The notes below the pieces were generated by a model. That model saw only the letters and a list, made by a program, of their open reading frames with translations, ran no database searches and was not told where the DNA came from. Shown piece by piece: positions 6,656 to 31,834 of a DNA stretch of 64,000 bases. A program made the position numbers and the translations under genes. How positions within the stretch are numbered: position 1 is the stretch's first letter; every line of letters starts with the position of its first letter. The DNA is taken from assembly GCA_965221335.1 (NCBI GenBank), contig CBDCSC010000006.1:199570-263569 (forward strand), in the 5' to 3' direction. Source of the DNA: Gammaproteobacteria bacterium (GTDB lineage Bacteria > Pseudomonadota > Gammaproteobacteria > Eutrophobiales > Eutrophobiaceae).

Positions 6656-6693
6656 TAAGGAGAAAATTATTACAATCATCCGAAATTTATACA

Positions 6694-6718
6694 AAAATTA
6701 AGTTGAAAGAGTACTAGA
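6694..6718. repeat. 25-nt sequence AAAATTAAGTTGAAAGAGTACTAGA, repeated exactly in inverted orientation at 54662-54686
   Basis: I compared the two copies base by base. Copy 1 sits just upstream of the TonB-receptor SD. Copy 2 begins 2 nt upstream of the dmpP stop codon and covers it. Confidence 0.8.
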
Positions 6719-6728
6719 GGGGGAGAGC

Positions 6729-8870: not shown

Positions 8871-8931
8871 TCGGGTCTGACGTACATCGGCGTTCACAAG
8901 TGTAATATCAACACCCGCGCGGAAACGGGGC

Positions 8932-10962: not shown

Positions 10963-10974
10963 CCGGAGAGAATA

Positions 10975-13980: not shown

Positions 13981-14006
13981 ACCGGATAGACCGCGAGTCA
14001 GGCGCA

Positions 14007-14300
14007 ATGCTGCGAATCTCCTGCCCAATTTGTGGTGAACGCGACGAAAATGAGTTTGTGTTCGGCGGCCAGGCTCATATCGCCCGGCCTGAACCGGCGG
14101 AGCAGGCATCTGACCGCGAGTGGGCTGAATATCTTTTTTTCCGGGACAACCCCAAAGGCGTGCATTTCGAACGCTGGCAACACCGCTACGGCTGCCGGCA
14201 GTGGTTCAATGTTGCCCGTCATACCGTAAGCCATGAGCTCCTGGCCGTGTATCGTCTCGATGAAGCGCCTCCGGAGATAGGCCGGGAAGAAACGGTATGA
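14007..14300 (+). CDS. soxD: Sarcosine oxidase delta subunit
   Basis: 97 aa. It has the zinc-ribbon-like start MLRISCPICGERDENEF that is typical of SoxD. Its stop overlaps the soxA start (ATGA). Confidence 0.9.
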   Translation: MLRISCPICGERDENEFVFGGQAHIARPEPAEQASDREWAEYLFFRDNPKGVHFERWQHRYGCRQWFNVARHTVSHELLAVYRLDEAPPEIGREETV

Positions 14301-17260: not shown

Positions 17261-17813
17261 ACTGAATCCGTGTTACGCATTGCAGGGCAGTGATGGACAG
17301 GCGCTGGTTTTGCAGACGGATCGCCTGGTACTGCAGGCGATCAACAATGTTCGCAAGCTGCGCTTGCAAGCCCGGCCGGACACGGAGATAAACCCGGCGC
17401 CGCTTGAAGCGTTACTGGGCATGACATTACCGCAAAACCCGCGGGAAAAGGTCAACCATGAGCCGGCAGCCTACTGGCTGGCCCCCAATGACTGGCTGCT
17501 GCTCGACCCGGCGCCGGCCGGCGGCAATATCAGCAATGTATTGCGGGAAGCAGCCGGTGGCGCCACGTGCGTTGTCACCGATGTGAGTGATGCCTGGAGC
17601 ATCATAGAGATTTCCGGCGCGGATGCCGCGGCAAAATTGGCGGAAGGCTGCTCGGTAGACCTTGATGACGATGCATTCCCGGTTGGCCGGTATGCCTTGA
17701 CCCGGTTGCAGCACCTGTCAGTAATCATACACAGACTGGACGACGGGTCAAAATTCCACCTCCTGGTTGACCGCAACCTGGCGTGTTTTCTCTGGGATTG
17801 GTTACGCATGTGA
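17253..17813 (+). CDS. soxG: Sarcosine oxidase gamma subunit
   Basis: The ATG at 17253 overlaps the soxA stop (ATGTCTGA). Size and position fit SoxG. The ORF-track start at 17145 would add 36 aa that lie inside soxA. Confidence 0.8.
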   Translation: MSELNPCYALQGSDGQALVLQTDRLVLQAINNVRKLRLQARPDTEINPAPLEALLGMTLPQNPREKVNHEPAAYWLAPNDWLLLDPAPAGGNISNVLREAAGGATCVVTDVSDAWSIIEISGADAAAKLAEGCSVDLDDDAFPVGRYALTRLQHLSVIIHRLDDGSKFHLLVDRNLACFLWDWLRM

Positions 17814-20083
17814 ACCGGGACAACGCACCGGTTTTCAAGGACCTGGTCCTGGTTGGTGGAGGCCACGCCCATGTCACGGTATTGAAAAAGTTTGCAATGA
17901 AACCGGTGCCCGGGGTGCGCATTACCCTGGTTTGCCGGGACTTGCAGGCGCCTTACTCCGGCATGTTGCCGGGATATATAGCCGGGCATTACCTATTTGA
18001 CGACGCGCATATCGACCTGGTTCCGCTGTGCCGATTTGCCCGCGCCCGGTTTTTCCACGATGAAGTCATCGGTCTGGATACGGATAACAGGAAACTGATC
18101 TGCCGCAGCCGGCCGTACCTGGGTTATGATATTTTGTCGATTAACGTCGGCTCAGCGCCCGATATCGCCGCAGTCCCCGGCGCTGACGGCAAGGTTATTC
18201 CCGTAAAACCCATTGATGGTTTCGTCGGTAACTGGCGCAAACTGTGTGCGCGAATGTTGCAGCGTCAAAATGGCGCGCGCATCGGTATCGTCGGCGGCGG
18301 GGCAGGCGGCGTCGAACTGGCGCTTGCAGTTCAATACCGGCTGAAAGCATTACTGGCCGGGAAATGGCCGGATAATACAAGTCCTGAATTTCACTTGTTT
18401 ACCGATGCCGGCGAGGTCCTTACAACACATAACCGCAATGTGCGCGCCAAGTTCCGGCGCGTGCTTAACGAGCGGAACATTCACGTACATACAGGGCACG
18501 AGGTGACCGAAGTCAGGGCCGGTGTGCTGCAATGTGCAAACGGCGCTACTTTTCAACTGGATGAGATCCTGTGGGTGACCAGGGCCCGCGCCCAGGACTG
18601 GCCGGGGCAGGCCGGATTGGATGTTGATGAACAGGGCTTTATCAAAGTCAACAATACTCTCGAGTCCGTCTCGCATCCCGGCATCTTTGCGGCCGGCGAT
18701 ATCGCGCATATGATTAACCATCCCCGGCCCAAGTCCGGTGTATTTGCCGTGCGCCAGGGAGCGCCGCTGTCACTGAATCTCCGCAACAGGTTGTTAAATC
18801 GCTCCCTCAAACCCTATTTTCCCCAGAGAGAGTTTCTGAGCCTGATTTCCACGGGTGATCAGTATGCCATCGCCTCACGCTCCTGGTGGGCGCTGGAAGG
18901 GCGCTGGGTGTGGCGCTGGAAGGACTGGATTGATCGCCGCTTCATGCGCAAGTACAACCGGCTTCCGGAAATGAAGGAGCCGGCACGGCGGGATATTCCC
19001 CGCGGCGTAGCCGATAAGGATGCGATCAGGGAGATATCCGCCATTGCGATGCGCTGTGGCGGGTGTGGCGCCAAGGTGGGCGCGACAGTGCTTGAAAATG
19101 CATTGGCTGGCCTTGAGCCGATCTCCCGGGACGATGTGCTTATCGGGTTGCACGAACCTGATGACGCCGCCGTGGCGAGTGTGCCGGCAGGCAAGGCAAT
19201 AGTGCATACGGTCGATGCCTTCCGTTCGTTTATCGATGATCCGTACATCTTCGGACAGGTGGCGGCCAATCATGCGCTGAGCGATTTATTTGCGATGGGC
19301 GCACAGCCGCAAACGGCGCTGGCAATCGTGACCGTTCCCTACGCGGACGAAAAGAAGCTTGAAGAGCTGCTGTCGCACCTGCTGCAAGGCGCTCTCAAGG
19401 CGCTGAACGGGGCTGGCGCGGCGCTGGTAGGCGGGCATACCTCCGAAGGCGAGGAACTGTCCCTGGGATTCGCCGTGAACGGGTTGGTTGATCGGGAGCA
19501 GATCCTGCGCAAACGCGGCCTGCGTGCCGGCGACAGAATAGTGCTGACCAAGCCCATCGGCACCGGGACACTGTTTGCCGCCGATATGCGGCACAAGGCT
19601 AAAGGCGCTTGGATTGCGGCCGCGCTGGACTGTATGCTGCAATCAAACCGGGAAGCCGCCAAGCGCCTGTTTGACCATGGCGCCGCGGCCTGTACGGACG
19701 TCACCGGATTCGGCCTGTTGGGACACCTGGTGGAAATGATCAAGCCATCTGGCGTCGATGTCGAGATTGACCTGGGCGCGATTCCGTGTCTTGATGGCGC
19801 TGAAGAGACGATTGCAGCCGGCATCTTCAGTTCCCTGCAGCCCCAGAACCTGCGACTGCGCCGGGCGATACGTGACGCTGAGAACGTATCAAAAGATACG
19901 CGCTACCCGTTGATATTTGACCCGCAAACATCCGGCGGACTGCTTGCCGGCGTTCCTGCAGAACAGGCCGAAGCCTGTGTTACCGCGCTACGTGAATTGG
20001 GCTATGCCCAAACTGCAATTATCGGCAGGGTATTGCCTGAGAGTAATAGGCTGGAACCGGTTAGGCTCGTCAGGAAGTCATAG
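17783..20083 (+). CDS. selD: Fusion protein: FAD/NAD(P)-dependent pyridine nucleotide-disulfide oxidoreductase (N-terminal) + selenide,water dikinase SelD (C-terminal). It is the candidate selenophosphate supplier (SenC role) for the adjacent senB/senA.
   Basis: The N-terminal domain has the Rossmann motifs DLVLVGGGHAHV and IGIVGGGAGGVELA plus FAAGDIA. The C-terminal domain has the SelD active-site loop MRCGGCGAKVG (the Cys form, not Sec) and AIR-synthase-like blocks (DDAAV, GGHT.EG). The start is uncertain: GTG at 17783, or GTG at 17810 overlapping the soxG stop as GTGA. Confidence 0.88.
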   Translation: MFSLGLVTHVNRDNAPVFKDLVLVGGGHAHVTVLKKFAMKPVPGVRITLVCRDLQAPYSGMLPGYIAGHYLFDDAHIDLVPLCRFARARFFHDEVIGLDTDNRKLICRSRPYLGYDILSINVGSAPDIAAVPGADGKVIPVKPIDGFVGNWRKLCARMLQRQNGARIGIVGGGAGGVELALAVQYRLKALLAGKWPDNTSPEFHLFTDAGEVLTTHNRNVRAKFRRVLNERNIHVHTGHEVTEVRAGVLQCANGATFQLDEILWVTRARAQDWPGQAGLDVDEQGFIKVNNTLESVSHPGIFAAGDIAHMINHPRPKSGVFAVRQGAPLSLNLRNRLLNRSLKPYFPQREFLSLISTGDQYAIASRSWWALEGRWVWRWKDWIDRRFMRKYNRLPEMKEPARRDIPRGVADKDAIREISAIAMRCGGCGAKVGATVLENALAGLEPISRDDVLIGLHEPDDAAVASVPAGKAIVHTVDAFRSFIDDPYIFGQVAANHALSDLFAMGAQPQTALAIVTVPYADEKKLEELLSHLLQGALKALNGAGAALVGGHTSEGEELSLGFAVNGLVDREQILRKRGLRAGDRIVLTKPIGTGTLFAADMRHKAKGAWIAAALDCMLQSNREAAKRLFDHGAAACTDVTGFGLLGHLVEMIKPSGVDVEIDLGAIPCLDGAEETIAAGIFSSLQPQNLRLRRAIRDAENVSKDTRYPLIFDPQTSGGLLAGVPAEQAEACVTALRELGYAQTAIIGRVLPESNRLEPVRLVRKS

Positions 20084-21028
20084 ATTATCCAGTAGGGCCT
20101 GCCACAACTTGCTTTCGCGTTCCGGGGTGAACAAGTGTTTGCGTTTGCTTCCGTGCTCGCGCAGATGTTGCAGGAATTCTTGCTCGTTTTCCGCCCGCTG
20201 TAACAACGCGCATAATGTTTCGGTGTCTGTTACCGGATAATAACCGGGATAATCGTCGCCGAGCAGGCCGGTATTGCCGTCGATCGCGGAGGCAATCACG
20301 GGAACGCCTGCGACCAGGGCTTCGGAAATGACATTCGCGCCGCCTTCCATGGTTGAGCTGTGAACCAGTGCATGGGTCTTCAGAAACTGCTCTCTGACCT
20401 GCCAGGCGCTGACCTCGCCGCGCCAATGATAACGGGGATTGATTGCCATCTCCGCGCGCGCCCGTGCAGCCCATTCAGCATTTTGCGCGTTGCCAAGATG
20501 GATTACCCGCAGGCGTGACCGTTGTGCAAGATTGCGCGCGGCGTAAGCGGTTCTGAACGGGTCTTTCTCTGCGCGTAAATGGCCGATAACGCAGACGTCG
20601 AACGTGCGTACTGAGGGACGGCGCGGGCGCGCCGGCGGCGTTGCCGATTGATGGATAACATGCAGCTTGTCGTGGAATGATGCCGGGAGCGCCCGGTGTG
20701 CAAGGTCATGCAGGCAGACCAGTGCATCGGCGGTCTGCATCGAACCCAGGGTTTCCTTCGCGTGACTGTATTGGAAGCGATAAATATCCGTTCCGGTCAG
20801 CGCAACCACCAGCGGGCGGGTCGGATAGCGCGTACGAAAGCGCGCGATCGAAGTGGCGCTACGCCAGGCATGCAATGCCACCATCATATCTCCAGGCATC
20901 CCATCCCAGTCGGATTGCACTGTTACCCTGTGGCCAATACCTCGCAGCAGTCGCGCCCAACGCGTTGCGGTCACGCGATTGCCCGTCTTCGATTGTTTTG
21001 TTGCGGGCGTGATCAGGATAATTTTCAT
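20078..21028 (-). CDS. senB: GT-B glycosyltransferase of the SelD-associated family (selenosugar synthase SenB-like)
   Basis: 316 aa. The N terminus MKIILITPA...KTGNRVTATRWA..LR..GH.V and HAWRSA match my memory of the SenB (TIGR04348-type) family. The C-terminal EGGANVISEALVAGVPVIAS block is the GT-B donor-binding motif. The gene sits between a SelD fusion and an EgtB-like gene. Confidence 0.75.
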   Translation of the reverse strand: MKIILITPATKQSKTGNRVTATRWARLLRGIGHRVTVQSDWDGMPGDMMVALHAWRSATSIARFRTRYPTRPLVVALTGTDIYRFQYSHAKETLGSMQTADALVCLHDLAHRALPASFHDKLHVIHQSATPPARPRRPSVRTFDVCVIGHLRAEKDPFRTAYAARNLAQRSRLRVIHLGNAQNAEWAARARAEMAINPRYHWRGEVSAWQVREQFLKTHALVHSSTMEGGANVISEALVAGVPVIASAIDGNTGLLGDDYPGYYPVTDTETLCALLQRAENEQEFLQHLREHGSKRKHLFTPERESKLWQALLDNL

Positions 21029-21143
21029 CCGCTACGCACTGTCTGATGGCATTATTGTCAACAGGTTATCATAACTCCTCGGCAGTAACTCTCTATCCTG
21101 CGATGAAGCGAATTGGTGACTGCTTCGGCTTGAGCTACAATAA

Positions 21144-22454
21144 ATGGCGATGCAACAGCTAAGCGGCAAATATTTAAAGGAAATCATGCTGGATGCCCAT
21201 CAGCGTACGCTGGAGTTGATCGCCGGCCTGGATGACGCGCAGTTGATGGGGCCAAAGTTGCCCATCGTCAATCCGTTGCGCTGGGAAATAGGGCATGTTG
21301 CCTGGTTTCATGAAAAGTTTATCTTACGCGATTTGTATGATTGCCCGCCGTTGCTGGCAAATGGTGATTCCCTCTATGATTCCATCGCCATCGATCACGA
21401 TCAGCGCTGGGATTTACCGTTGTTGAGCATGCGGGAGACGCTGGACTATATAGGGAACGTCCTGGGCCACTGCCTGGCGCGGTTGCCGGATGGCGCGGCA
21501 GACCCGGAACAGAGTTATATCTACCGGTTTTCCACCTACCACGAGGACATGCATACCGAGGCCTATTGCTGGTCGCGCCAGACCCTGGCCTACCCGCAGC
21601 CCGCTTTTGCCGCTGCGGGCAAACCGGAGGATGCAGGCGCCGGGGCCTGGTCTGGGGATGTGGCGATCCCTGGCGGGGTGTTTTCTCCGGGCGCCGTGGA
21701 AGCGACGCCGTTTGTGTTTGATAACGAGAAATGGGCGCACAAGACAACCCTGGAGCCGTTTCATATTGCAAAAGCGCCGGTGACCAATGCCGAGTTCATG
21801 GAATTTGTCGCTGCCGGGGGCTACCTGTGCCGGGAGTTCTGGAGTGATGCAGGCTGGTCCTGGCGCGAGCAAGCTGACGCCCGGCATCCCGTATACTGGC
21901 AGAACGGCGGCAAGGATGCGTGGCGGCTGAGGTGGTTTGATGACGTCGGGGAGCTGCCGCCGCATCAGCCTGTTATCCATGTCAACTGGCATGAGGCCAA
22001 TGCGTACTGCCGTTGGGCAGGCAGGCGTTTGCCGACGGAAGCGGAGTGGGAAGCGGCGGCGTTGGGCGAACCTGCCGATGACCACAGCAGGCTTGCTTTG
22101 AAGAAACGCAGTTACCCGTGGGGGGAACAACCTCCTGGTGAACTTCATGCCAATCTTGATGGCCGGGCGCTGGGCTGTGTCGATGTCGCAGCCCTGCCGG
22201 CGGGGGACAGCGCGTTCGGCTGCCGGCAGATGCTAGGCAACGTATGGGAATGGACTGCATCCACGTTTGCGCCGTTCCCGGGCTTTTCGCCGGATGCCTA
22301 CAAAGAATATTCCGAACCGCTGTTTTATCACACGAAAGTATTGAAGGGTGGCGCCTGGGCTACCCGGAGCCGGATGATAACAGGCCGCTACCGTAACTTT
22401 TTCACGCCTGACCGGCGCGATGTGCTCGCGGGTTTCAGAACCTGCGCTCTTTAG
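21144..22454 (+). CDS. senA: EgtB-like C-S/C-Se bond-forming synthase (DinB-like domain + FGE-sulfatase/SUMF1 domain); selenoneine synthase SenA-like by context
   Basis: 436 aa. It has three-His iron-site candidates (EIGHVAWFHE; YHEDMHTE) and FGE-domain blocks (HVNWHEANAYCRWAGRRLPTEAEWE, GNVWEWT, KGGAW). It is divergent from senB and lies 2 nt upstream of selA. Confidence 0.78.
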   Translation: MAMQQLSGKYLKEIMLDAHQRTLELIAGLDDAQLMGPKLPIVNPLRWEIGHVAWFHEKFILRDLYDCPPLLANGDSLYDSIAIDHDQRWDLPLLSMRETLDYIGNVLGHCLARLPDGAADPEQSYIYRFSTYHEDMHTEAYCWSRQTLAYPQPAFAAAGKPEDAGAGAWSGDVAIPGGVFSPGAVEATPFVFDNEKWAHKTTLEPFHIAKAPVTNAEFMEFVAAGGYLCREFWSDAGWSWREQADARHPVYWQNGGKDAWRLRWFDDVGELPPHQPVIHVNWHEANAYCRWAGRRLPTEAEWEAAALGEPADDHSRLALKKRSYPWGEQPPGELHANLDGRALGCVDVAALPAGDSAFGCRQMLGNVWEWTASTFAPFPGFSPDAYKEYSEPLFYHTKVLKGGAWATRSRMITGRYRNFFTPDRRDVLAGFRTCAL

Positions 22455-22456
22455 CA

Positions 22457-23917
22457 ATGGGCATAAATATCCGGAGTTTGAGACGCCTGCCATCCGTGGA
22501 TCGCGTGCTGCGGGAAGCGTCTGATTTGGTCGAGCGTTGGGGACATGAGCGGGTGGCTGTTGCGATACGCAATACGCTAGAGCAGGTGCGCGCAAACATG
22601 GAAGAATTCGCTGCTCTCGACAAGTCAGCGCTATTGGAGCAAGTCGTTTCCATACTGGCGTGCAGGCTGGAACAGGAGTCCGCGGGCAGCCTGGTCAGTG
22701 TGTTCAACCTGACCGGCACCGTCCTGCATACCAACCTGGGCCGCGCGGTACTGCCGCGCGCGGCGCTGGACAACGCGCTGGCCTTGGCCCAGACACCGGT
22801 AAACCTGGAATTTGACCTGGAGAGCGGCACGCGCGGAGATCGCGATGAGCATATCGAACCACTGATCTGCGAACTCTGCGGGGTGGAAGCGGCAACCGTG
22901 GTGAACAACAATGCCGCCGCAGTATTACTGGTATTGAATACTTTGGCTAAAGGCCGGGAGGTTCCGGTCTCACGCGGCGAACTGGTCGAGATTGGCGGTT
23001 CTTTTCGCATCCCGGATATCATGCAGGGTTCAGGCTGTGCGCTGGTTGAGGTCGGTACGACCAACCGTACCCATTTGCAGGACTACCACAATGCGATCAA
23101 TGACAGGACGGCGTTGTTGTTAAAAGTTCATGCCAGTAACTATCAGATCCGCGGGTTTACCCATAGTGTTCCCGAGAAAGAGTTGGCTCAACTGGCCCAC
23201 CAGCGCGGGTTGCCGCTGGTTGTCGACCTGGGTAGCGGTAATCTGATCGACTTTGCCGCCTTCAACCTGCCTGATGAGCCTACGGTCGCGCAAGCGCTGA
23301 AGAGTGGCGCCGATATTGTAACCTTCAGTGGAGACAAGCTGTTGGGCGGTCCCCAATGCGGCATAATCGCCGGCGAACACGCATTGATCGCCAGGATGAA
23401 GAACAATCCGCTGAAACGCGCGCTAAGGGTTGACAAGATAACCCTGGCTGTCCTGTCAGAGGTGTTGAAACTCTATCAAAACCCCGCGCGGCTTGCACAG
23501 GATCTGCCGGCTCTGGCCGCGCTGACACGTCCACCGGATGCTATCCGCGCCCAGGCTGAGCGGATCGCCCCTGCGCTCGCGGACGCGCTGGCGCCGCGTT
23601 ATCAAGTCGAGGTCTGCGAATGTCACAGCCAGGTTGGCAGCGGTGCGCTGCCGATTGATACACTGGCAAGTTACGGGTTAAGGATCAGCGCGGTGGAAGA
23701 GTCGGATGAAGCGATCAGACTGCTGGCGGCATCCATGCGCCGTCTGCCCACACCGGTCATAGGCCGGATCAACCAACGCGCTTATTTCCTGGATCTGCGC
23801 TGCCTGGACCGGGAGGAAGAGTTTATTTCCCAGTTACGGAGTACTGGTACTGGTCTCCCGGATCATCTTCCGGAACATGCGCACGCCGACAAGTTTGAGC
23901 ATCAGTTTTTGGAATAG
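22457..23917 (+). CDS. selA: L-seryl-tRNA(Sec) selenium transferase
   Basis: 486 aa. Blocks: LPSVDRVL, VFNLTGTVLHTNLGRA, NLEFDLE.G.RG.R, VVNNNAAAVLL.LN, SRGELVEIGGSFRIPDIM, and the PLP-lysine block FSGDKLLGGPQ. Confidence 0.93.
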   Translation: MGINIRSLRRLPSVDRVLREASDLVERWGHERVAVAIRNTLEQVRANMEEFAALDKSALLEQVVSILACRLEQESAGSLVSVFNLTGTVLHTNLGRAVLPRAALDNALALAQTPVNLEFDLESGTRGDRDEHIEPLICELCGVEAATVVNNNAAAVLLVLNTLAKGREVPVSRGELVEIGGSFRIPDIMQGSGCALVEVGTTNRTHLQDYHNAINDRTALLLKVHASNYQIRGFTHSVPEKELAQLAHQRGLPLVVDLGSGNLIDFAAFNLPDEPTVAQALKSGADIVTFSGDKLLGGPQCGIIAGEHALIARMKNNPLKRALRVDKITLAVLSEVLKLYQNPARLAQDLPALAALTRPPDAIRAQAERIAPALADALAPRYQVEVCECHSQVGSGALPIDTLASYGLRISAVEESDEAIRLLAASMRRLPTPVIGRINQRAYFLDLRCLDREEEFISQLRSTGTGLPDHLPEHAHADKFEHQFLE

Positions 23918-25039
23918 GGATGGGGGCGTTGAGTTGGCTGCGGAGACATATCGGTTTATGCCGAGTTGCTCGCACAGGTCTTCGGACATGACCTGCATCG
24001 GCCCGTCCGACGGGATGCCGGTCGCATCGGCGATGCGCACCATGCGCTGAAAGTTCGATACCACCCCCGCAGCGTCGATCATCGCCGCCGAACCCATCTT
24101 ATCCGACAAAGTCTGGCGCGCGCGGTCCAGTTCAAAGCCGTCGACGCCCATGCAGGCATTCGCGAACTGCAGCAGTTCCTGGGAATCCGGTATACCCTTG
24201 ATCTCGGTGCAGGCGGGATCAGTGAGGCCATCGAAGTCGATGGACCCGCCTGTCAGCCTGACGCTCTCACGGAGCATCACCACATGTGAGGAAGTTCAGT
24301 AAAAACAGCCGTTCAGCGCAGATACCCGGGCGGCCACAATCTCGGTCTGGGGACGGGTCAGGGTTCCCTGCGGCGGCCTGGTCATATTCCAGACCTCGTG
24401 CACATCCAGGTAATGCGCGTCGGACTGCTCAAGCAGGTTGCGGACTTCGTCAGGAACCAGGCTCATGGCTCTGATCACATAGCCGCGCATGTCGCCTTCC
24501 CACAGGTCCGCATCCGGCCCGCTATCGACCCGCGTCGGCAGTATCGGCACCCAGGCGCCCTCGTGGGATACATTGGCCGGACGGTAGCGGCTGGGTTCGC
24601 CCGGTTGCGGATCCGGCAGTTCATTCAAAGGCAGGCCCAGGCAACGGCAGAACTCGTCGATGGAGAACACCGAGACCAGTGTGCCGATGATCTCAATATA
24701 TTTTTCTTCGCTGAGACCCTGTTGCATGATCCCGTCGAACCAGGATTTCGTCAGGCGCGCCGAGTCGGTGGTGACCCGGTGGATCACTTCGATTACGACA
24801 TCCGGAAGATCGGTGACGGTGTCATGGGCGCCGTCAACCGTGTAAGGTGACAACGATTCCTTGCGCCGGCTGCACAGTCTGCACTGTAGCGCCTGGCGTA
24901 TTTCCCTGGCAATGTCAACACGCTCAGCGCCGGTGAACCAGGTACCCGGCGCGGCTAGCCGCTGCCAGTAACGATTGTGGCAGGCGGCAAAGTCTGCGCG
25001 TACCGGCCAGGGGGCGTTGCTGTAGTTGATCTCAGTCAC
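23834..25039 (-). CDS. AhpD-like (carboxymuconolactone decarboxylase family) two-domain protein with an in-frame UGA at 24296-24298, predicted to encode selenocysteine; the read-through product is 401 aa
   Basis: ORF-track entries 24296..25039 and 23834..24283 are in the same frame and separated only by TGA plus 4 sense codons. Reading through gives ...SALNGCFY-U-TSSHVVML..., i.e. C-x-x-U-x-x-x-H, which matches the AhpD/CMD C-x-x-C-x-x-x-H redox motif. selA and selD are adjacent. Confidence 0.75.
24266..24290 (-). promoter_or_regulatory. Candidate bacterial SECIS-like hairpin, starting at the ninth nucleotide counted from the U of the UGA codon
   Basis: On the mRNA, CUCAC (nt 9-13 counted from the U of UGA) can pair with GUGAG (nt 29-33). 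The apical region contains GGUGAUG. This was folded by eye only. Confidence 0.35.
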
Positions 25040-25190
25040 TGCCCACTATTCTCAATAATTTTGCAGGTAACGTCAATGCAATTTTGCCGGTAAGTGATAC
25101 TATTCCTGCCCTTGCTAGGATATTGCCCGGAGTGAACTGGTGTAATATCGAGGCAATTTTAGGCAATACTTGAAGACGGGATATTCAATC

Positions 25191-28100
25191 ATGTGGCAAT
25201 TCTGGATCGATCGCGGCGGCACGTTTACCGATATAGTCGCCAAATCTCCCGAAGGCCGGTTACACAGCCACAAGCTGCTCTCCGAAAACCCCGGGCATTA
25301 CCGGGATGCGGCCGTGCAGGGGATTCGTGACATTCTCGGCCTTGCGCCCGGCGCCGCCATTCCTCCGAACACTATTGAACAGGTGAAGATGGGCACCACT
25401 GTGGCTACCAATGCACTGCTGGAGCGTAACGGCGAGCGTACCGTGTTTGTGACCACCAGGGGTTTTGCGGACGCGCTGCGTATCGGCTACCAGGATCGCC
25501 CGCGCCTGTTTGATCGCCATATCGTGCTGCCGGCGCTGTTATATGAGCGCGTAATAGAAGTGGATGAGCGTGTCGATGCCGAGGGCAAGGTGTTGTGCCC
25601 TCTCAATCAAGAGTGGGTCAGGGCCGACTTGAAGTCGGTATTCGATACCGGGATCCGATCAGTAGCGGTTGCCTTCATGCATGGTTATCGCCAACGCGGC
25701 CATGAACGCAAGGTCGGTGAAATTTGCCGGCAGCTCGGTTTTACCCAGGTTTCCCTGAGTCATGAAGTCAGTCCCCTGGTCAAACTGGTTGCACGTGGTG
25801 ACACCACCGTTGTCGACGCCTACCTGTCACCTATCCTGCGCCGCTACGTGGAGCAGGTTGCCGATGAGCTGGGCATTGAGGATGGCAGCGGCACGCGCCT
25901 GCTGTTCATGCAGTCCAACGGCGGGCTCACCGATGCCCACCTGTTCCGGGGCAAGGATGCGATCTTCTCCGGCCCTGCCGGCGGTGTGGTGGGCATGACC
26001 CGGACTGCCGAAATGAGCGGGCTGCACAAGTTGATCGGTTTCGATATGGGAGGCACTTCAACCGACGTGAGCCACTATGACGGCGAGTATGAGCGCAGTT
26101 TTGAAACACAGGTGGCCGGCGTGCGCATGCGCGCGCCGATGATGAATATCCATACAGTGGCCGCGGGCGGAGGTTCGATACTTCGCTATGATGGCGCCCG
26201 TTTCAGGGTTGGGCCCGAATCCGCCGGCGCCGATCCCGGCCCGGCCTGTTACCGGCGCGGCGGGCCGCTGACCGTAACCGATTGCAATGTGATGCTGGGA
26301 AAAATCCAGCCGCAGCATTTCCCGGCCATCTTCGGCGCCACAGGTAATGAACAACCGGATCGGGAAACAGTGGAACGGAAGTTTATCGACCTTGCGCAGA
26401 GAGTTTCCCGCACCCGGCGAAAAACCGTAAGCGCTGAAGATGTGGCGCAGGGCTTTTTGCGCATTGCCGTGGAAAACATGGCCAATGCGATTAAAAAAAT
26501 TTCTCTGCAACGCGGTTATGACGTCACCGAATACACGCTTAATTGCTTTGGCAGCGCCGCCGGCCAGCATGCTTGCGCGGTCGCGGACTCGCTGGGTATG
26601 GACCGGATTTTTCTGCATCCGCTTGCCGGGGTGTTATCCGCCTACGGCATGGGACTCGCCGAACTGCGGGTACTGCGCGAGGCGCAAGTAGGTATTGATT
26701 TTAACGGTCCCGACGTGGAAAAGGAAATTGCGATACACAGCCGGCCGCTGGCTGTCTCCGCCCGTGCCGCGCTGCGGCAGCAAGGGGTGAATGCACAGAA
26801 TATCTCCATTATTGTCAGGGTTCACATGCGCTACCAGGGCACCGACACCAGCCTGGAAGTTGACGCCGGCAGCGCCACACAAATGTTGTCTGATTTTGAA
26901 GCCGCACACCGCCGCCGCTTCGGCTTTGTGGCGCGCGAGCGGGGCCTGGTCATTGAGTCCCTGGCGGTGGAGGCTGTCGGCGAAACGGATTTCGGGATCG
27001 ACCCGGAGACGGACTCGCCCATGCCGGAACAGGACCCGCCTGTACACGAGCGGGTCGGCATGTACTCTGATGGGCAATGGCGGGACATACCCCTGTACCT
27101 GCGCGCGCACCTGCTCCCTGAACAGGTGCTTGAGGGGCCTGCCATCATCATCGAACCTACGGGTACGATCGTAGTCGAGCAGGGTTGGCGCGGCACGCTG
27201 AACCGCCGTGGCCACCTGGTGCTCGAACGTCACGCCAAATGTGACAACCGGGAGACTGTCGGCACCGGCGCCGATCCGGTGATGCTCGAGGTGTTCAATA
27301 ACCTGTTCATGTCGATCGCCGAGCAGATGGGCGTTACCCTGCAGAACACCGCGTACTCCGTGAATATCAAGGAACGCCTGGATTTTTCCTGTGCGCTGTT
27401 CAATGCCGAAGGTAAATTGGTGGCCAACGCCCCGCACATACCCGTGCACCTGGGTTCGATGGGTGAATCCGTACAGCGCGTCATTGATGCCAACAAGGGC
27501 CATATCGAGCCCGGTAATGTATATGTACTCAATGCCCCGTATGCGGGCGGCACCCACCTGCCTGATGTAACCGTGATTACGCCGGTGTTTGATGATCGGG
27601 GTGAGAACATCCTGTTTTACCTGGCTTCACGCGGACACCATGCCGACATAGGCGGGCGCACACCCGGCTCGGCCCCGCCGGACAGCGCCCATATCGACGA
27701 GGAGGGAGTGCTGATTGACAACTTCCTGCTGGTGGAGAACGGCCGGTTGCGTGAGCGGGAGATACGGAAATTGCTGGGATCGGGCAAGTACCCTTGCCGC
27801 AATATCGACCAGAACCTGGCCGACCTGGCAGCGCAGGTAGCCGCCAACGAGACCGGTCTTAACGAATTGCGCCGAATAGTCGGACATTACGGCATCGATG
27901 TAGTGGATGCCTATATGCGGCATGTGCAGGACAACGCCGAGGAGTCGGTGCGGCGGGTACTGCAAACATTGCAGGATGGAGAATTCGACTACCGGATGGA
28001 CCAGGGTTGCGTGATCCGCGTTCGCTTGTCCGTTGACCGCGAAAACCGAGAGGCGAGTATTGATTTTACCGGCACCTCCATGCAGAACCCGACGAACTAC

Positions 28101-28799
28101 AACGCTCCGAGCGCGGTCTGCCGGGCCGCGATCCTGTACGTGTTACGCACGCTGGTCGACGATGACATCCCGTTGAACGAAGGTTGCCTCAAACCGATCA
28201 GACTGATCCTGCCTGAGCGCTCAATGCTCGCGCCCGAATATCCGGCGGCAGTAATGGCCGGCAATATCGAAGTGTCCCAGGCGCTTGCGAACGCGCTGTA
28301 TGGCGCCCTGGGGACCCTGGCCGCATCACAGGGCACGATGAACAATATCTTCTACGGTAACGAGCGGCACCAGAATTACGATACCGTCTGCGGCGGCACG
28401 GGCGCCGGACCGCAGCATCCCGGTACGGATGCCGTACACAGTCATATGACCAATACCCGTATGACTGATCCGGAGATACTGGAATTGCGATTTCCCGTGC
28501 GCTTGGAGGAGTTTTCCATCCGCCGGGGTTCGGGTGGCGCCGGCAGGCATTACGGGGGAAACGGTATGCTGCGCAAATTGCGCTTCCTGGAGCCTATGAC
28601 CGTCACCACGTTGAGTTCCCACAGAGTGGTGCCACCTTTCGGAGTGGCGGGAGGAAAACCAGGCCGGCGCGGTAATAACTATGTGGAGCGGGCTGACGGT
28701 GAATATGTACAACTCAGGGGCGATGACGAGATCGAAGTCAATACCGGCGATATGTTCGTCATGGAAACACCGGGAGGAGGGGGCTTTGGCAAGGTCTGA
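25191..28799 (+). CDS. 5-oxoprolinase (ATP-hydrolysing), fused HyuA-HyuB type
   Basis: About 1200 aa. The N terminus [17 protein letters not shown], plus DMGGTSTDV and [18 protein letters not shown], mark the A-type half. The B-type half has FSCALF...G.L.ANAPH.PVHLGSM and ends GGGGFGK. The ORF-track start at 25170 (TTG) is an alternative. Confidence 0.9.
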
Positions 28800-28855
28800 T
28801 CCTGATAAACCAGTAATGAGAAATGACTACTGTTGTTTCAACCTGAGATAGCTAT

Positions 28856-29006
28856 GGAACCTCTGATTAAGTCAGAGGTTCCTGCGACACATGGATGTAT
28901 CGCCAAATTCGATGACGATAAGTCATTGAATTTGAAAGCAAAACAAAAATCGCTTTTTTGTTTTGCGTGCACTGACAAGTCCAGGATGGACTTGTTCAGA
29001 GCTTCC
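28856..29006. repeat. Composite ~150-nt intergenic element made of five consecutive hairpins (copy A)
   Basis: Modules: (1) GGAACCTCTGA-N-TCAGAGGTTCC, (2) CGA.ACA-N-TGTATCG, (3) CAAATTCGATGAC/GTCATTGAATTTG, (4) GCAAAACAAAAA/TTTTTGTTTTGC, (5) CTGACAAGTCC/GGACTTGTTCAG. It is collinear with copy B at 34574. Confidence 0.85.
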
Positions 29007-29136
29007 CTATATATCCACCATTCCCGTGAAAACGGGAATCCAGAAAGGAACTCTTCCTTAGTTTGGAAACTTGTTACCCGCTGGTTTCCCGGTAATGTGA
29101 GAATAGGAATGGAAAGTGGCTAGCGTATATTATAGT

Positions 29137-29164
29137 AAACTCTGAGACTTAATCAGAGTTTCCT
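29137..29164. repeat. Solo palindromic unit (AAACTCTGA-N7-TCAGAGTTTCC)
   Basis: It carries the same CTCTGA/TCAGAG core as module 1. Confidence 0.65.
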
Positions 29165-29183
29165 AAAATAGGGTAGAACTGAT

Positions 29184-30560
29184 ATGACAGAGATTGCCAG
29201 AAGTACCGGTGAATGGCAACAGGCGGATATTGATAATTACCTGCACCCGTTCACTGATTATAAGGCGCTGCTGAGCGAAAAGGCGCTTGTCATCAAGCGC
29301 GGGAAAGGTTGTTATGTCTGGGACAATGACAATAACAGGTACCTTGACGGTTTGGCCGGCCTTGCCTGTGTCAATATCGGTTACGGCCGAACTGAACTCG
29401 GGGAGGCTGCCGCCGCACAGGTGGAACAGTTAAGCTACTTCAACAGTTTTTTCAAATCGACGAATCCACTGGCGGTCACACTGGCCGAGAAACTGGTTGA
29501 GATAACGCCTGTTGGATTGAACCACGTCTTCTACGCCAACTCCGGTTCCGAGGCAAACGATACCGCATTACGCATGGTAAGACAGTATTGGATGCTTGAA
29601 GGGCAGTCGAAAAAGCAGACGATCATCGCCCGGGAGATGGCCTATCACGGCAGCACCGTGGCGTCCGGCGCCTTGTCCGGTATGCCGTGGATGCATGAAC
29701 AGGCCGCCGTGGTACCCGGTGTTGAGCATATTCAGTGTCCTTACCAGTTTCAGTACGGTCGGAATGTGAGCGAGGAAGAGTTCGGTGTTATCGCTGCAGG
29801 CTGGCTCGAGGACAGGATTCTGCAGACTGGTCCTGAGAAGGTGGCTGCGTTTTTTGCTGAACCGGTGCAAGGGGCCGGGGGCGCTAAGATTCCCCCGCGG
29901 AATTATTTTGATGAGGTCGGGAAGATCTGCAGGAAATACGATGTATTACTGGTTATCGATGAGGTGATTACCGGCTTTGGTCGGACCGGAAAGTGGTTCG
30001 CCAGCGATCTCATGCAGATAGAACAGGTGGACCTGATGTGTGTGGCCAAGGGAATCACTTCCGGTTACCTGCCGCTCTCTGCAGTCATGGTCGGCGACCG
30101 GGTTGCGGATACCCTGGTCGAAAAAGGCGGCGAATTCTATCATGGGTTCACCTATTCCGGCCATCCGGTGAGTTGCGCGGTGGCCCTTGAAAATATCCGC
30201 ATCCTTGACGAAGAGGGAATAATCCGCCAGGTTGAGAAAGTAACCGGACCCTACCTGAAACAACGTTTAACGGCATTGTACGGGTCGCCGCTGGTAGCAG
30301 AGGCGCGCAGTTGCGGCATGATAGCCGCGGTCGAACTGGTGAGGAATTGTGAAAGTATGGAACCGATAGCTGACAATATGGAGGACATTGAGCGATACAC
30401 CGAAGTATTTCGCGACCTGTGTCTTGAACAGGGCATCATTGTGCGCCCGATTGGCTCAACGATCATGATGTGTCCGCCGTTGATCATTACCGAACCGGAA
30501 ATCGACTTCCTGGTGGAAAAAATGCAGGTTGCCCTGGAAGGATTTGAGAAGGTTATCTAG
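29184..30560 (+). CDS. Class III (omega) aminotransferase, PLP-dependent (beta-alanine/putrescine:pyruvate transaminase-like)
   Basis: 458 aa. Blocks: YLHPFTD, NSGSEANDTALR, DEVITGFGRTG, and the PLP-lysine block CVAKGITSGYLPLS. Confidence 0.88.
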   Translation: MTEIARSTGEWQQADIDNYLHPFTDYKALLSEKALVIKRGKGCYVWDNDNNRYLDGLAGLACVNIGYGRTELGEAAAAQVEQLSYFNSFFKSTNPLAVTLAEKLVEITPVGLNHVFYANSGSEANDTALRMVRQYWMLEGQSKKQTIIAREMAYHGSTVASGALSGMPWMHEQAAVVPGVEHIQCPYQFQYGRNVSEEEFGVIAAGWLEDRILQTGPEKVAAFFAEPVQGAGGAKIPPRNYFDEVGKICRKYDVLLVIDEVITGFGRTGKWFASDLMQIEQVDLMCVAKGITSGYLPLSAVMVGDRVADTLVEKGGEFYHGFTYSGHPVSCAVALENIRILDEEGIIRQVEKVTGPYLKQRLTALYGSPLVAEARSCGMIAAVELVRNCESMEPIADNMEDIERYTEVFRDLCLEQGIIVRPIGSTIMMCPPLIITEPEIDFLVEKMQVALEGFEKVI

Positions 30561-30563
30561 TAC

Positions 30564-30602
30564 TAGCGCAGTCTGCAACAACACGAAAGTGAACTGGCGC
30601 TA
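30564..30602. terminator. Hairpin between the convergent aminotransferase and ahcY genes (possible bidirectional terminator)
   Basis: TAGCGCAGT (30564-30572) pairs with ACTGGCGCTA (30593-30602) with one bulge. There is no U-tract and the loop is long. Confidence 0.3.
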
Positions 30603-30610
30603 ACCAAATG

Positions 30611-31834
30611 CTAGTACTCGGTCCAGGATTGCAATGTCCTGAGGGCCACCTCGTTCTCGATTTGTGTTGGTACCGGCTGCGGACCAACGGGTAATGATTG
30701 CCCGTCCTGTGCCAGGCAGGCCAGGGACAGGGATTGCAGCGCCAGGCCCAGGTCCATGATTTCAATCGGGTTGCCGTCGCCGGCGGCCAGGTTGACCGAG
30801 TTGCCCTCGCTCAGGAGGTAGACGGTTTTGCCGTTATCCAGCTTGAATTGCCGTATTTCCGGCATGATGGTATGTGTCTCGACCGACAGTTCGCGCAGGC
30901 CGGCCAGGTCGATTTCTGTTTCAAACATGCCGGCATTGCAAATGACGGCGCCGTCCTTCAGCAGCGCCAGGTGGTCGCGTTGGAGCGCGCCCGGCCTGCC
31001 GGTGACGGTGATGACGAAGTCGCTGGCAGGCAATGCTTCATGCAAATCGGCCGTGTCGTAACCTTCCGTATGCGCTTCAAGGCGCGTCAGCGGGTCGATA
31101 TCCACGACCGTTACGTGAGTACCCAGGCCGCGTAACGCGCGGGCAATGCCCTGGCCACAGAAGCCATATCCGATTATGGTTACCCGTTTGCCGCCGAGCA
31201 ACAGGTTGGAACAGCGCATGATGCCGTCCACCACCGATTGGCCGACACCGTAACGGTTTTCGATGATCCGTTTTGCCCGGCTGTCATTGATGACAATAGT
31301 GGGGAACAAGTGTTCCGCGAGTTCCTCGCGCAAGCGGAAGCCGCCGGTGGTGGTCTCCTCGGTAGCGCCGATGATCCTTAATTTTACCCTGGAAAATTCC
31401 GGATCGGTAAGCGCGAGCACATGCAGGTCGGCGCCATTGTCTACAACCAGGTCGGGGCCGGTTGCCAGTACTCTTGACGCGTACTCCAGGTGCCGGGTGA
31501 ACGTTTCGCTTTTCCTGGCAAACACCTGTACACGGTATTCCTGCACCAGCGCTGCGGCCACTTCATCCTGGGTGGTGCCGGGACTGCCGGTGATGGCGAT
31601 CTCTGCGCCACCGCTGAGCAACGCATCCAGCCAGATGCCGGTCTTTGCCTCCACGTGCAGGCAAATGCCGATGCGCATGCCCGCAAAAGGCCTGCTGCGG
31701 GCGAACTCCTGTTTTATTCCGCGCAGTATCGGCATTTGCTCCCGCACCCAGTCCATGCGCTGCAAACCTTGGCGCGCCAGACCGATATCTTCTATCTCGT
31801 AGGAAAAATCAGTCATCATTAACCTCTTCTTCAT
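30611..31834 (-). CDS. ahcY: Adenosylhomocysteinase family protein, short (archaeal-like, 407 aa) form
   Basis: Blocks: MP.L...K.EF...PF.G.RI..CLH.E.KT, TEETTTG and DS..K...EN.YG. It has the NAD-binding motif IIGYGFCGQGIA. Confidence 0.85.
   Translation of the reverse strand: MKKRLMMTDFSYEIEDIGLARQGLQRMDWVREQMPILRGIKQEFARSRPFAGMRIGICLHVEAKTGIWLDALLSGGAEIAITGSPGTTQDEVAAALVQEYRVQVFARKSETFTRHLEYASRVLATGPDLVVDNGADLHVLALTDPEFSRVKLRIIGATEETTTGGFRLREELAEHLFPTIVINDSRAKRIIENRYGVGQSVVDGIMRCSNLLLGGKRVTIIGYGFCGQGIARALRGLGTHVTVVDIDPLTRLEAHTEGYDTADLHEALPASDFVITVTGRPGALQRDHLALLKDGAVICNAGMFETEIDLAGLRELSVETHTIMPEIRQFKLDNGKTVYLLSEGNSVNLAAGDGNPIEIMDLGLALQSLSLACLAQDGQSLPVGPQPVPTQIENEVALRTLQSWTEY

What the first reader, a model, noticed from the sequence alone, without database searches (positions are those of the whole stretch)
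23834..25039. Two adjacent 'hypothetical ORFs' are one AhpD-like selenoprotein gene with UGA inside a C-x-x-U-x-x-x-H motif
On the minus strand the 247-aa ORF ends ...SALNGCFY-TGA. The next ORF starts only 4 sense codons later, in the same frame.

Reading TGA (24296-24298) as Sec gives NGCFYUTSSH. This superimposes on the AhpD/carboxymuconolactone-decarboxylase redox motif C-x-x-C-x-x-x-H, with Sec replacing the second Cys. The upstream half carries a second CxxC (QCRLCS), which suggests a tandem AhpD-like architecture.

The gene lies next to selA and selD. AhpD-like proteins are a known but rare bacterial selenoprotein family from computational selenoproteome surveys. Standard gene callers would mis-annotate this locus as two fragments.
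Basis: partly seen in the sequence, partly recalled or inferred. Interest (0 to 1): 0.85.

Follow-up and report, generated by a model that had tools for sequence, protein, structure and literature searches.

The report
Known AhpD-related selenoprotein gene, miscalled split
The two "hypothetical ORFs" are one gene for a redox protein that uses the rare amino acid selenocysteine at an in-frame UGA, but this protein family is already described and curated, so the gene is an ordinary new example.

Summary
On the minus strand, a 247-aa ORF (24296-25039) ends ...NGCFY-TGA and continues in frame to TAA at 23834-23836, giving 401 aa. The read-through protein scores 474 bits (cut-off 175), end to end, against NCBIfam NF041238 [quoted passage not shown].

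Of 41 homologous genome loci that cover the site, 39 have TGA at the same codon. The other two (Henriciella, Pseudomaricurvus) have Cys codons and uninterrupted genes.

The coding signature is the same before and after the UGA. A hairpin 24 nt downstream (24259-24279) meets all four published bacterial SECIS criteria. Its core shows almost no synonymous change across 38 genes, and the Cys forms lack it.

selA and an Ndh-SelD fusion gene lie alongside. In three relatives, tRNA-Sec lies beside the homologous gene. In the one of these read in full, selB lies there too.

The family was first reported in 2005 as Sargasso Sea "hypothetical protein 1" (CxxU). A 2026 review lists it under NF041238.

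Not shown: selB and selC in this genome, selenium incorporation, and the substrate.

Modest additions: the N-terminal half also appears to have an AhpD-like fold with an invariant or near-invariant CxxC, most Sec forms share a basic C-terminal tail, and the gene is often linked to Sec-machinery genes.

The parts
23834..25039 (-). Complete gene for the AhpD-related CFYUT selenoprotein: 401 codons including Sec248, plus the TAA stop at 23834-23836.
   Evidence: Searches show the sequence and frame. NF041238 scores 474 bits against a cut-off of 175 and covers residues 13-365; tblastn matches to residues 1-398/401 in related genomes.
24296..24298 (-). In-frame TGA, read as selenocysteine (U248).
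   Evidence: TGA at the homologous codon in 39 of 41 loci; TGC or TGT (Cys) in L028 and L029. Cys of the full-length homologs aligns to it.
24284..24307 (-). Redox motif C245-F-Y-U248-T-S-S-H252. The upstream catalytic-type Glu233 lies at 24341-24343.
   Evidence: E233, C245, Y247, U248, T249 and H252 are invariant; the motif aligns to the CxxCxxxH of the AhpD-core structures 2oyo and 6k40.
24259..24279 (-). SECIS-like hairpin: 8-bp stem (UGAUGCUC / GAGCGUCA) and 5-nt loop CGUGA, with 24 nt between the UGA and the loop.
   Evidence: the stem-loop has an energy of -10.8 kcal/mol; a 5-bp core is predicted from 41 sequences, with 90.8% of cells paired against 22-59% in slid controls; third-codon-position entropy is 0.35, 0.18, 0, 0.18 and 0 bits at codons 254-258, against a gene mean of about 1.4; the element is absent from the Cys forms. 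It meets the bSECIS criteria quoted in PMC13188914.
24470..25039 (-). N-terminal domain (residues 1-190), all-alpha, with a conserved C53-x-x-C56 (24872-24883) and a conserved C131. It is probably a second, divergent AhpD/CMD-like fold.
   Evidence: C53 is invariant in both alignments; C56 and C131 are invariant in A1 and at least 90% conserved in A5; the model has pLDDT 90, and its top 26 PDB fold matches are all AhpD/CMD-family proteins (prob 0.97-1.0 for the best, E 0.025-0.1, TM about 0.46); hhalign of the N half against the C half gives P = 0.06.
23945..24469 (-). C-terminal AhpD/CMD domain (residues about 191-365), which carries the CxxU active site.
   Evidence: Pfam CMD PF02627 scores 28.2 bits against a cut-off of 23; the sequence matches the AhpD structure 6k40 over residues 209-342; the fold matches 2prr, 3c1l and 2oyo.
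23837..23944 (-). C-terminal tail (residues 366-401; ...SLFQKLMLKLVGVRMFRKMIRE...). It is basic and hydrophobic, lies beyond the NF041238 model, and overlaps the 3' end of selA.
   Evidence: the tail is conserved in most Sec-form homologs down to about 52% identity. Its codon-position entropies (1.06, 0.85, 1.44) are coding-like. It is absent from the Cys forms and from the L034-L041 group. A role in membrane association is inference only.
25048..25076 (-). Promoter-like hexamers TTGACG-17-GAGAAT, just upstream of the GTG start.
   Evidence: This is a consensus match only (2 found, 0.7 expected) and is not evidence of function.
22457..23917 (+). selA (L-seryl-tRNA(Sec) selenium transferase). 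It converges on the selenoprotein gene, and the two 3' ends overlap by 84 nt.
   Evidence: TIGR00474 scores 582 bits; selA has the same convergent position in L001-L003, L005, L009-L013 and L027.
17783..20083 (+). Ndh-SelD fusion: a pyridine nucleotide-disulfide oxidoreductase domain fused to selenophosphate synthetase, with CGGC at the active site. It would supply selenophosphate.
   Evidence: TIGR03169 scores 497 bits and TIGR00476 scores 305 bits. PMC2398784 describes this fusion type and its CxxC.

Best explanation
One 401-codon gene encodes a member of the known selenoprotein family NF041238 (AhpD-related, CFYUT motif).

Mechanism of decoding. During translation, the UGA at 24296-24298 is decoded as selenocysteine. 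A SECIS hairpin 24 nt downstream, inside the coding sequence, recruits SelB carrying Sec-tRNA(Sec). The Sec-tRNA(Sec) is made by the neighbouring SelA, using selenophosphate from the neighbouring Ndh-SelD.

The product. It is an all-helical, two-lobed protein. The C-terminal AhpD/CMD domain carries the active site E233...C245-F-Y-U248-T-S-S-H252. By analogy with AhpD, the selenolate of U248 is the attacking nucleophile on an oxidised partner or substrate (a sulfenic acid, disulfide or peroxide). C245 then resolves the adduct into a selenenylsulfide, which is re-reduced. The conserved N-terminal C53-x-x-C56 is a candidate for that internal relay.

Shown: gene continuity, the UGA/Cys pairing, family membership, the conserved hairpin, and adjacent selA and selD.

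Inferred: actual Sec insertion, presence of selB and selC in this genome, the chemistry, the substrate, and the roles of the N-terminal domain and the C-terminal tail.
For: - Family: NF041238 scores 474 bits against a cut-off of 175, in one stretch across the UGA.
- Fold and motif: Pfam CMD is above its gathering score. The sequence aligns to the AhpD-core structures 2oyo and 6k40 with E, C, C and H in register.
- UGA/Cys pairing: 39 of 41 loci have TGA at the homologous codon and 2 have Cys. Full-length Cys proteins align over it.
- Translation downstream: codon-position entropies are 0.81/0.63/1.43 before the UGA and 0.82/0.67/1.37 after it. T249 and H252, which lie between the two 'ORFs', are invariant at the protein level but vary at synonymous sites.
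- SECIS: an 8-bp stem, loop CGUGA with G at loop position 2 followed by U, 24-nt spacing, and -10.8 kcal/mol. This meets the four constraints of the bSECIS model quoted in PMC13188914. Pairing is 90.8% against 22-59% in slid controls, with some compensatory changes (G-C to A-U, A-U to G-C or C-G). Synonymous sites are frozen at codons 254-258. The Cys forms lack the element and have different residues there (MLSVS or MLQTS instead of MLRES).
- Machinery: selA and Ndh-SelD are in the window. tRNA-Sec lies beside the homolog in L015, L018 and L033, and L015 has selD-selA-selB-selC. In L017's genome, tRNA-Sec is on the same chromosome about 1.6 Mb away.
- Literature: PMC1088965 (2005, 'hypothetical protein 1', CXXU) and PMC13188914 (2026, listed as NF041238).
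Against: - No tRNA-Sec or selB is present in the 64-kb window.
- The hairpin is not statistically distinguishable from shuffles when folded alone (z = 0.62).
- Most of the hairpin's pairs are invariant, so covariation support is thin: the covariation score was reached by 51 of 500 shuffles.
- The protein fails the curated cut-offs for AhpD proper (TIGR00777, 15.6 against 192) and for the COG2128-type peroxidase-related family (TIGR01926, 36 against 81.8). 'AhpD-like chemistry' is therefore analogy, not membership.
- No AhpC/Prx partner was seen in the window, by motif search only.
- There is no experimental evidence of selenium incorporation for any member that I could find.
Confidence: 0.93

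Rival explanations
1. The TGA is a genuine stop. The locus encodes two separate proteins: a 247-aa N-terminal protein and a 149-aa protein that starts at GTG 24283.
For: The ORF lister and public gene callers produce exactly this. 116 of the top 120 database homologs are listed as fragments that cover only the first 56-62% of the query. A GTG lies 4 codons after the TGA.
Against: - The four codons between the two ORFs encode the invariant T249 and the catalytic-type H252, and they vary at synonymous sites.
- A split would cut the CxxCxxxH motif in two.
- The Cys homologs are single uninterrupted genes.
- One HMM spans the junction.
- No Shine-Dalgarno-like or start context was examined or seen that would explain conservation of frame in 39 loci.
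Confidence: 0.03
2. The gene is a pseudogene, or the TGA is an assembly or sequencing error for TGC or TGT.
For: A single-base change (TGC or TGT to TGA) would produce the observed codon.
Against: - The same TGA occurs in 39 independent assemblies spanning 38-95% protein identity.
- The downstream part keeps a coding signature.
- A dedicated conserved RNA hairpin accompanies only the TGA forms.
Confidence: 0.01
3. The UGA is recoded, but not (or not always) as Sec. For example, near-cognate tRNA-Trp or tRNA-Cys could read through it when selenium is scarce, or if this genome has lost selB or selC.
For: selB and selC were not found in the window or traced in its closest relatives.
Against: - An intact selA abuts the gene (582 bits, with the sequence ...SGDKLLGGPQ... 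that I take to contain the PLP-binding lysine, as recalled from E. coli SelA; and ORF listing). The only known substrate of SelA is Ser-tRNA(Sec).
- The conserved SECIS-type hairpin implies SelB-dependent decoding.
- Relatives place selB and selC next to the homolog.
Confidence: 0.03

Closest known systems
NCBIfam NF041238 'AhpD_rel_CFYUT', alkylhydroperoxidase-related (seleno)protein. This is 'hypothetical protein 1' of the Sargasso Sea selenoproteome (Zhang, Fomenko and Gladyshev 2005, PMC1088965), listed as 'AhpD-related protein' in PMC13188914.
   Same: The whole protein matches: a full-length HMM match at 474 bits, the CFYUT motif with Sec at CxxU, the existence of Cys-form homologs, and a SECIS-type hairpin just downstream of the UGA.
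   Different: Nothing essential differs. The window protein and most Sec forms carry a roughly 36-residue basic and hydrophobic C-terminal tail beyond the model's end. Function is unknown for the whole family.
AhpD of Mycobacterium tuberculosis, and AhpD-core 'peroxidase-related' proteins (PDB 6k40, 2oyo, 2prr, 3c1l; Pfam CMD PF02627; TIGR01926, COG2128-type).
   Same: All-helical AhpD/CMD fold in the C-terminal domain and the E-x11-C-x-x-C/U-x3-H motif in register. It probably works as a thiol/selenol oxidoreductase. Assigning the second position as the attacking nucleophile comes from my recollection of the AhpD literature; it was not tested here.
   Different: It is about twice as long, with an extra N-terminal domain that has its own CxxC. 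It scores below the curated cut-offs for TIGR00777 (15.6 against 192) and TIGR01926 (36 against 81.8). No AhpC partner is nearby. Sec replaces the second Cys.
'AhpD-like 1' (COG2128) and 'AhpD-like 2' or CMD (PF02627) selenoprotein families of the Sargasso Sea and GOS surveys (PMC1088965, PMC2398784).
   Same: A CxxU motif in an AhpD/CMD domain, and a marine or aquatic proteobacterial distribution.
   Different: The 2026 review table (PMC13188914) lists these as separate families (TIGR01926, PF02627) from NF041238. The window protein belongs to NF041238.
Sestrin2 (PDB 5dj4, 5t0n).
   Same: A two-lobed, all-helical protein. As I recall, both lobes are related to AhpD. It appears among the fold matches of the full-length model (best chain TMq 0.44, prob 0.66).
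   Different: The match is weak (E above 0.5). There is no sequence similarity, it is eukaryotic, and it has no Sec. It is only an architectural analogy for a tandem AhpD-like protein.

Membership tests
NF041238 AhpD_rel_CFYUT (seleno)protein | Whole-protein HMM score above the curated cut-off (175 bits), with end-to-end coverage. | tested here: met
   474.3 bits; residues 13-365 align to model positions 1-356 of 357 in one stretch.
NF041238 AhpD_rel_CFYUT (seleno)protein | C-F-Y-U-T motif, with UGA (or Cys in the non-Sec forms) at the fourth position. | tested here: met
   NGCFY-TGA-TSSH; the same motif in 39 loci, with C[FY]YCT in the 2 Cys-form loci.
Bacterial selenoprotein (SelB/SECIS-dependent UGA decoding) | In-frame UGA aligned to Cys in homologs, with conserved coding sequence on both sides. 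| tested here: met
   for the alignment; codon-position entropies are 0.82/0.67/1.37 downstream and 0.81/0.63/1.43 upstream.
Bacterial selenoprotein (SelB/SECIS-dependent UGA decoding) | bSECIS immediately downstream: loop of 3-9 nt, upper stem of 4-16 bp, G in the first two loop positions, 16-37 nt from the UGA, and MFE of -7.5 kcal/mol or lower (PMC13188914, Fig. 2 legend). | tested here: met
   loop CGUGA (5 nt, G at position 2 then U), 8-bp stem, 24-nt spacing, -10.8 kcal/mol; the element is conserved and its synonymous sites are frozen. No dedicated bSECIS program was available.
Bacterial selenoprotein (SelB/SECIS-dependent UGA decoding) | selA and selD in the genome. | tested here: met
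   TIGR00474 at 582 bits (22457-23917) and TIGR00476 at 305 bits within the Ndh-SelD fusion (17783-20083).
Bacterial selenoprotein (SelB/SECIS-dependent UGA decoding) | selB and tRNA-Sec (selC) in the genome. | not testable with these tools
   Neither is in the 64-kb window. Scans did not reach the window's lineage. Indirect support: tRNA-Sec is adjacent to the homolog in L015, L018 and L033, selB is also present in L015, and selC lies on the same chromosome in L017's genome.
Bacterial selenoprotein (SelB/SECIS-dependent UGA decoding) | Selenium physically present in the full-length polypeptide. | not testable with these tools
   This needs 75Se labelling or mass spectrometry.
Pfam CMD (PF02627) / AhpD-core domain | Domain score above the gathering threshold, and the E-x11-C-x-x-C-x3-H motif. 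| tested here: met
   28.2 bits against 23. E233, C245, U248 and H252 are in register with 2oyo and 6k40.
AhpD proper (TIGR00777) and COG2128-type peroxidase-related enzyme (TIGR01926) | Score above the curated cut-off. | tested here: not met
   TIGR00777 scores 15.6 against 191.95, and TIGR01926 scores 36 against 81.8. The protein is related to these families but is a member of neither.
Tandem (two-lobe) AhpD-like architecture | The N-terminal half independently recognisable as an AhpD/CMD fold. | tested here: inconclusive
   the N-domain model has pLDDT 90, and its top 26 PDB matches are all AhpD/CMD proteins, but with E 0.025-0.1, TM about 0.46 and rmsd 8-9 A; hhalign of the N half against the C half gives P = 0.06, with CxxC aligned to CxxU. 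No Pfam or NCBIfam domain hit falls in residues 1-190.

The most novel reading that the evidence does not exclude
The CFYUT selenoprotein may not be a general antioxidant. It could be a dedicated accessory of selenium metabolism, for example a selenol/thiol reductase that handles selenium (selenite, selenotrisulfide or selenide) for the Ndh-SelD fusion that feeds both Sec and selenoneine synthesis.

The hint is positional. In about one third of loci (13 of 41) the gene sits directly beside selA, Ndh-SelD, selB and selC, or beside the senAB genes. All eight adjacent selD genes matched the window's Ndh-SelD fusion protein, and where the locus held the 5' part of the gene the match ran into the Ndh half.

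The evidence does not exclude this reading, but adjacency of a genome's few selenoprotein genes to the sel genes is common for trivial reasons. The other neighbours (TonB-dependent receptor, UbiD, MFS transporter) are unrelated to selenium.
Probability: 0.12. Interest if true: 0.6.

Novelty: already known. Interest (0 to 1): 0.22.

Why it matters
For annotation, the gene should be called as one 401-aa selenoprotein. Generic callers split or truncate it: 116 of the 120 best database homologs are listed as fragments that cover only the first 56-62% of the query.

Biologically, the window shows a compact selenium island on one 7-kb stretch: Ndh-SelD, senB, senA-selA, and a selenoprotein gene. The organism therefore appears to channel selenophosphate into both selenocysteine and selenoneine. 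That is a tidy example but not a new principle.

The family's function has been unknown since 2005. Three observations here could guide an experiment: the probable second AhpD-like lobe with its own CxxC, the highly conserved SECIS core GAUGCUC-CGUGA-GAGC, and the recurrent linkage to Sec machinery. They are incremental.

Tried and rejected
1. Folding the 67 nt after the UGA alone gave no signal above shuffles (z = 0.62). The case for the hairpin rests on comparative data instead.

2. The hairpin first seen by eye, CUCAC...GUGAG (positions 9-13 paired with 29-33), was rejected because it is broken in the L034-L043 group. The stem at 20-27 paired with 33-40 is the one that is kept.

3. Rfam at gathering thresholds found nothing in the window, and ARAGORN found no tRNA.

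4. The search for selB and selC in the window's lineage failed.
- The exact 24-mer of the Halieaceae-type tRNA-Sec gave 29 hits, none from the L001-L014 genomes.
- The L015 SelB protein recovered only 4 loci.
It did recover selC on L017's chromosome.
- All four genome-contig scans are now used.

5. An exact look-up of the 247-aa product found no record, so the source contig was not identified.

6. A scan of the window for other TGA-interrupted ORFs with CxxU, UxxC or similar motifs found only out-of-frame or antisense junk besides this gene.

7. A motif search for an AhpC/Prx or thioredoxin partner in the window found none. This was a weak test.

8. Neighbour clustering across the 45 loci found no consistent functional partner apart from the Sec genes.
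Full report
**Observation.** On the minus strand, the ORF 24296-25039 (247 aa, GTG start) ends ...SALNGCFY followed by TGA at 24296-24298. The frame then continues through T-S-S-H and the GTG at 24283, and runs to TAA at 23834-23836. Read-through gives 401 aa containing NGCFYUTSSH. An N-terminal QCRLCS is also present.

**What it is.** With Cys substituted for the UGA, the 401-aa protein matches NCBIfam NF041238 'AhpD_rel_CFYUT, alkylhydroperoxidase-related (seleno)protein'. This is an equivalog model. The score is 474.3 bits against a curated cut-off of 175, and residues 13-365 align to model positions 1-356 of 357 in one stretch across the UGA. Pfam CMD (PF02627) is above its gathering score at residues 221-258. 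AhpD proper (TIGR00777) and the COG2128-type TIGR01926 model are far below their cut-offs. The protein is therefore AhpD-related, not AhpD. By sequence, residues 209-342 align to the solved AhpD-core proteins 2oyo and 6k40, with Glu, Cys, Cys(U) and His in register.

**Is the UGA decoded? Evidence from homologs.**
- A search of the large protein collection returned 1823 relatives. Of the best 120, 116 are listed as fragments that cover only the first 56-62% of the query; those aligned end at ...CFY. Four are full length (376-382 aa) with C[FY]YCTSGH.
- In one-genome-per-species contigs, 45 related loci were found, and tblastn matches run through the stop to residues 397-401.
- At the homologous codon, 39 of the 41 loci that cover it have TGA. 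Two have TGC or TGT: a Henriciella MAG and Pseudomaricurvus alkylphenolicus.
- In a codon alignment of 38 Sec-form genes, the mean entropies at codon positions 1, 2 and 3 are 0.81, 0.63 and 1.43 bits before the UGA, and 0.82, 0.67 and 1.37 bits after it. The downstream part therefore evolves as coding sequence in the same frame.
- T249 and H252 lie between the two 'ORFs'. They are invariant as amino acids but vary at synonymous sites.

Together these results exclude a sequencing error, a pseudogene, and two independent genes.

**SECIS.** The 70 nt after the UGA were aligned for 41 Sec-form genes. The block GAUGCUCCGUGAGAGC is nearly invariant, including at third codon positions.
- RNAalifold predicts a 5-bp core with loop CGUGA.
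- Extended to 7 pairs, 90.8% of cells pair, against 22-59% when the partners are slid. One-sided changes (U-A to U-G, G-C to G-U) and a few two-sided changes (G-C to A-U, A-U to G-C or C-G) keep the helix.
- In the window the hairpin lies at 24259-24279. It has an 8-bp stem, a 5-nt loop with G at position 2 followed by U, 24 nt between the UGA and the loop, and an energy of -10.8 kcal/mol.
- These values meet the four constraints of the published bacterial SECIS model: loop 3-9 nt, stem 4-16 bp, G in the first two loop positions, 16-37 nt spacing, and MFE of -7.5 kcal/mol or lower (PMC13188914, Fig. 2 legend).
- Third-position entropy falls to 0.35, 0.18, 0.00, 0.18 and 0.00 bits at codons 254-258, against a gene mean of about 1.4.
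- The Cys forms lack the element and encode different residues there (MLSVS or MLQTS rather than MLRES/MLRVS).

Two caveats apply. Folded alone, the segment is no more stable than shuffles. Because most pairs never vary, formal covariation is weak.

**Sec machinery.** The window holds selA (22457-23917, 582 bits). It also holds an Ndh-SelD fusion (17783-20083; TIGR03169 497 bits plus TIGR00476 305 bits) with CGGC at the SelD active site. The GOS study described this fusion type and its CxxC (PMC2398784).

No tRNA gene, and no ORF with SelB-type GTPase motifs, lies in the 64 kb.

Among homologous loci, tRNA-Sec lies next to the gene in L015, L018 and L033, and L015 has selD-selA-selB-selC converging on it. 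In the genome of L017, tRNA-Sec lies on the same chromosome about 1.6 Mb away, so a remote selC is normal.

selB and selC in this genome therefore remain unverified. The intact selA, whose only known substrate is Ser-tRNA(Sec), makes their presence likely, but this is inference.

**Architecture.**
- A model of a full-length Cys homolog (pLDDT 82, pTM 0.84) is all-helical. Its best PDB fold matches are the AhpD-core proteins 2prr, 3c1l and 2oyo. The two-lobed Sestrin2 appears weakly.
- The N-terminal 190 residues of the window protein, modelled alone (pLDDT 90), have AhpD/CMD-family proteins as all of their top 26 matches. The best of these have probability 0.97-1.0 but E-values of 0.025-0.1 and TM of about 0.46.
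- A profile alignment of the N half against the C half places C53-x-x-C56 over C245-x-x-U248 at P = 0.06.
- C53 is invariant and C56 at least 90% conserved across 44 sequences.
- Residues 366-401 form a basic, hydrophobic tail. It is conserved in most Sec forms, absent from the Cys forms, and lies beyond the model's end. Its last 28 codons overlap the poorly conserved 3' end of selA on the other strand.

**Likely mechanism.** By analogy with AhpD-type proteins, the U248 selenolate attacks an oxidised substrate or partner, with help from H252 and E233. C245 resolves the adduct to a selenenylsulfide. The enzyme is then re-reduced, possibly through the N-terminal CxxC. The motif and its conservation are shown. 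The chemistry, the substrate and the reductant are inferred. No AhpC/Prx motif was found in the window.

**Comparison with what is known.** CxxU AhpD-like selenoproteins were reported from the Sargasso Sea in 2005. In that paper 'hypothetical protein 1' (4 sequences, CXXU) had no assigned function (PMC1088965). [quoted passage not shown] 'AhpD-like 1' was the fourth most abundant selenoprotein family in GOS (PMC2398784), so these proteins are not rare in aquatic bacteria. The window gene is a routine member of an already curated family.

**Context noticed.** The gene ends a compact selenium island: Ndh-SelD, then senB (TIGR04348, 417 bits), then senA (NF041186, 492 bits), then selA 3 nt after senA. 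The same block flanks the homolog in L001-L003, L005 and L010-L013. Across all loci the neighbours vary: SelA in 13, a TonB-dependent receptor in 18, UbiD in 12 and an MFS transporter in 12. A dedicated role in selenium handling is therefore only a minority possibility.

**Verdict.** Novelty is low because the family is already known. What remains open is selB and selC in this genome, physical proof of selenium in the protein, and the function.

Noticed in passing
window 17783-23917: A compact selenium island. It comprises an Ndh-SelD fusion (CGGC active site), senB on the opposite strand (its 3' end overlaps that of selD by 6 nt), and senA followed 3 nt later by selA. Selenoneine biosynthesis genes and the Sec-tRNA synthase appear to share one selenophosphate synthetase and possibly one transcript (senA-selA). 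The same block occurs in L001-L003, L005 and L010-L013.
   Followed up: partly
window 23834-23917: The convergent genes selA and the selenoprotein gene overlap by 84 nt at their 3' ends. The selenoprotein tail is conserved across distant homologs. The last roughly 26 residues of SelA lie beyond the TIGR00474 model, and only L001 and L005 matched them.
   Followed up: partly
window 12-12693 and 25170-28799: Four sets of hydantoinase/oxoprolinase-type genes (caprolactamase CapA/CapB-like, all below the equivalog cut-offs). There are three alpha-beta pairs (12-2782, 2889-6655, 8932-12693) and one fused 1209-aa gene that runs divergently from the selenoprotein gene. A TonB-dependent receptor lies among them (6729-8870), and a soxBDAG-type sarcosine oxidase cluster follows (12730-17813).
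   Followed up: no
L001 1-6000 versus window 25040-31000: Synteny with the closest relative (95% identical selenoprotein, 96-99% identical SelA, SenA, SenB and SelD) appears to break immediately upstream of the selenoprotein gene. The window has the fused oxoprolinase-like gene there. L001 gave no match to that gene and instead holds members of the TonB-receptor and UbiD families somewhere in its 13 kb; I did not check where they lie.
   Followed up: no
L006/L020 (OZ242265.1), L014/L031 (CBDBPJ010000003.1), L015/L025 (SI037_bin171), L023/L037 (CBDDBH01): Several genomes carry two paralogous copies of the CFYUT selenoprotein gene. Both copies have the in-frame TGA. Identities to the window protein are 52-62% and, in two of the genomes, 82-83%.
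   Followed up: no
L062 and L074 (both JADFNG010000047.1); unidentified locus among L046-L074: One 18.8-kb contig holds two matches to the tRNA-Sec 5' 24-mer, roughly 7.5 kb apart (possibly two selC copies). One tRNA-Sec-like sequence in the set carries an unusually long insertion in the variable-arm region.
   Followed up: no
window 24299-24301 and 24294-24295; alignment A2 columns 1-5: The codon before the Sec codon is always TAC (Tyr, with no synonymous TAT in 38 genes). The two bases after the UGA are always AC. This may reflect a constraint on UGA context beyond the hairpin.
   Followed up: no
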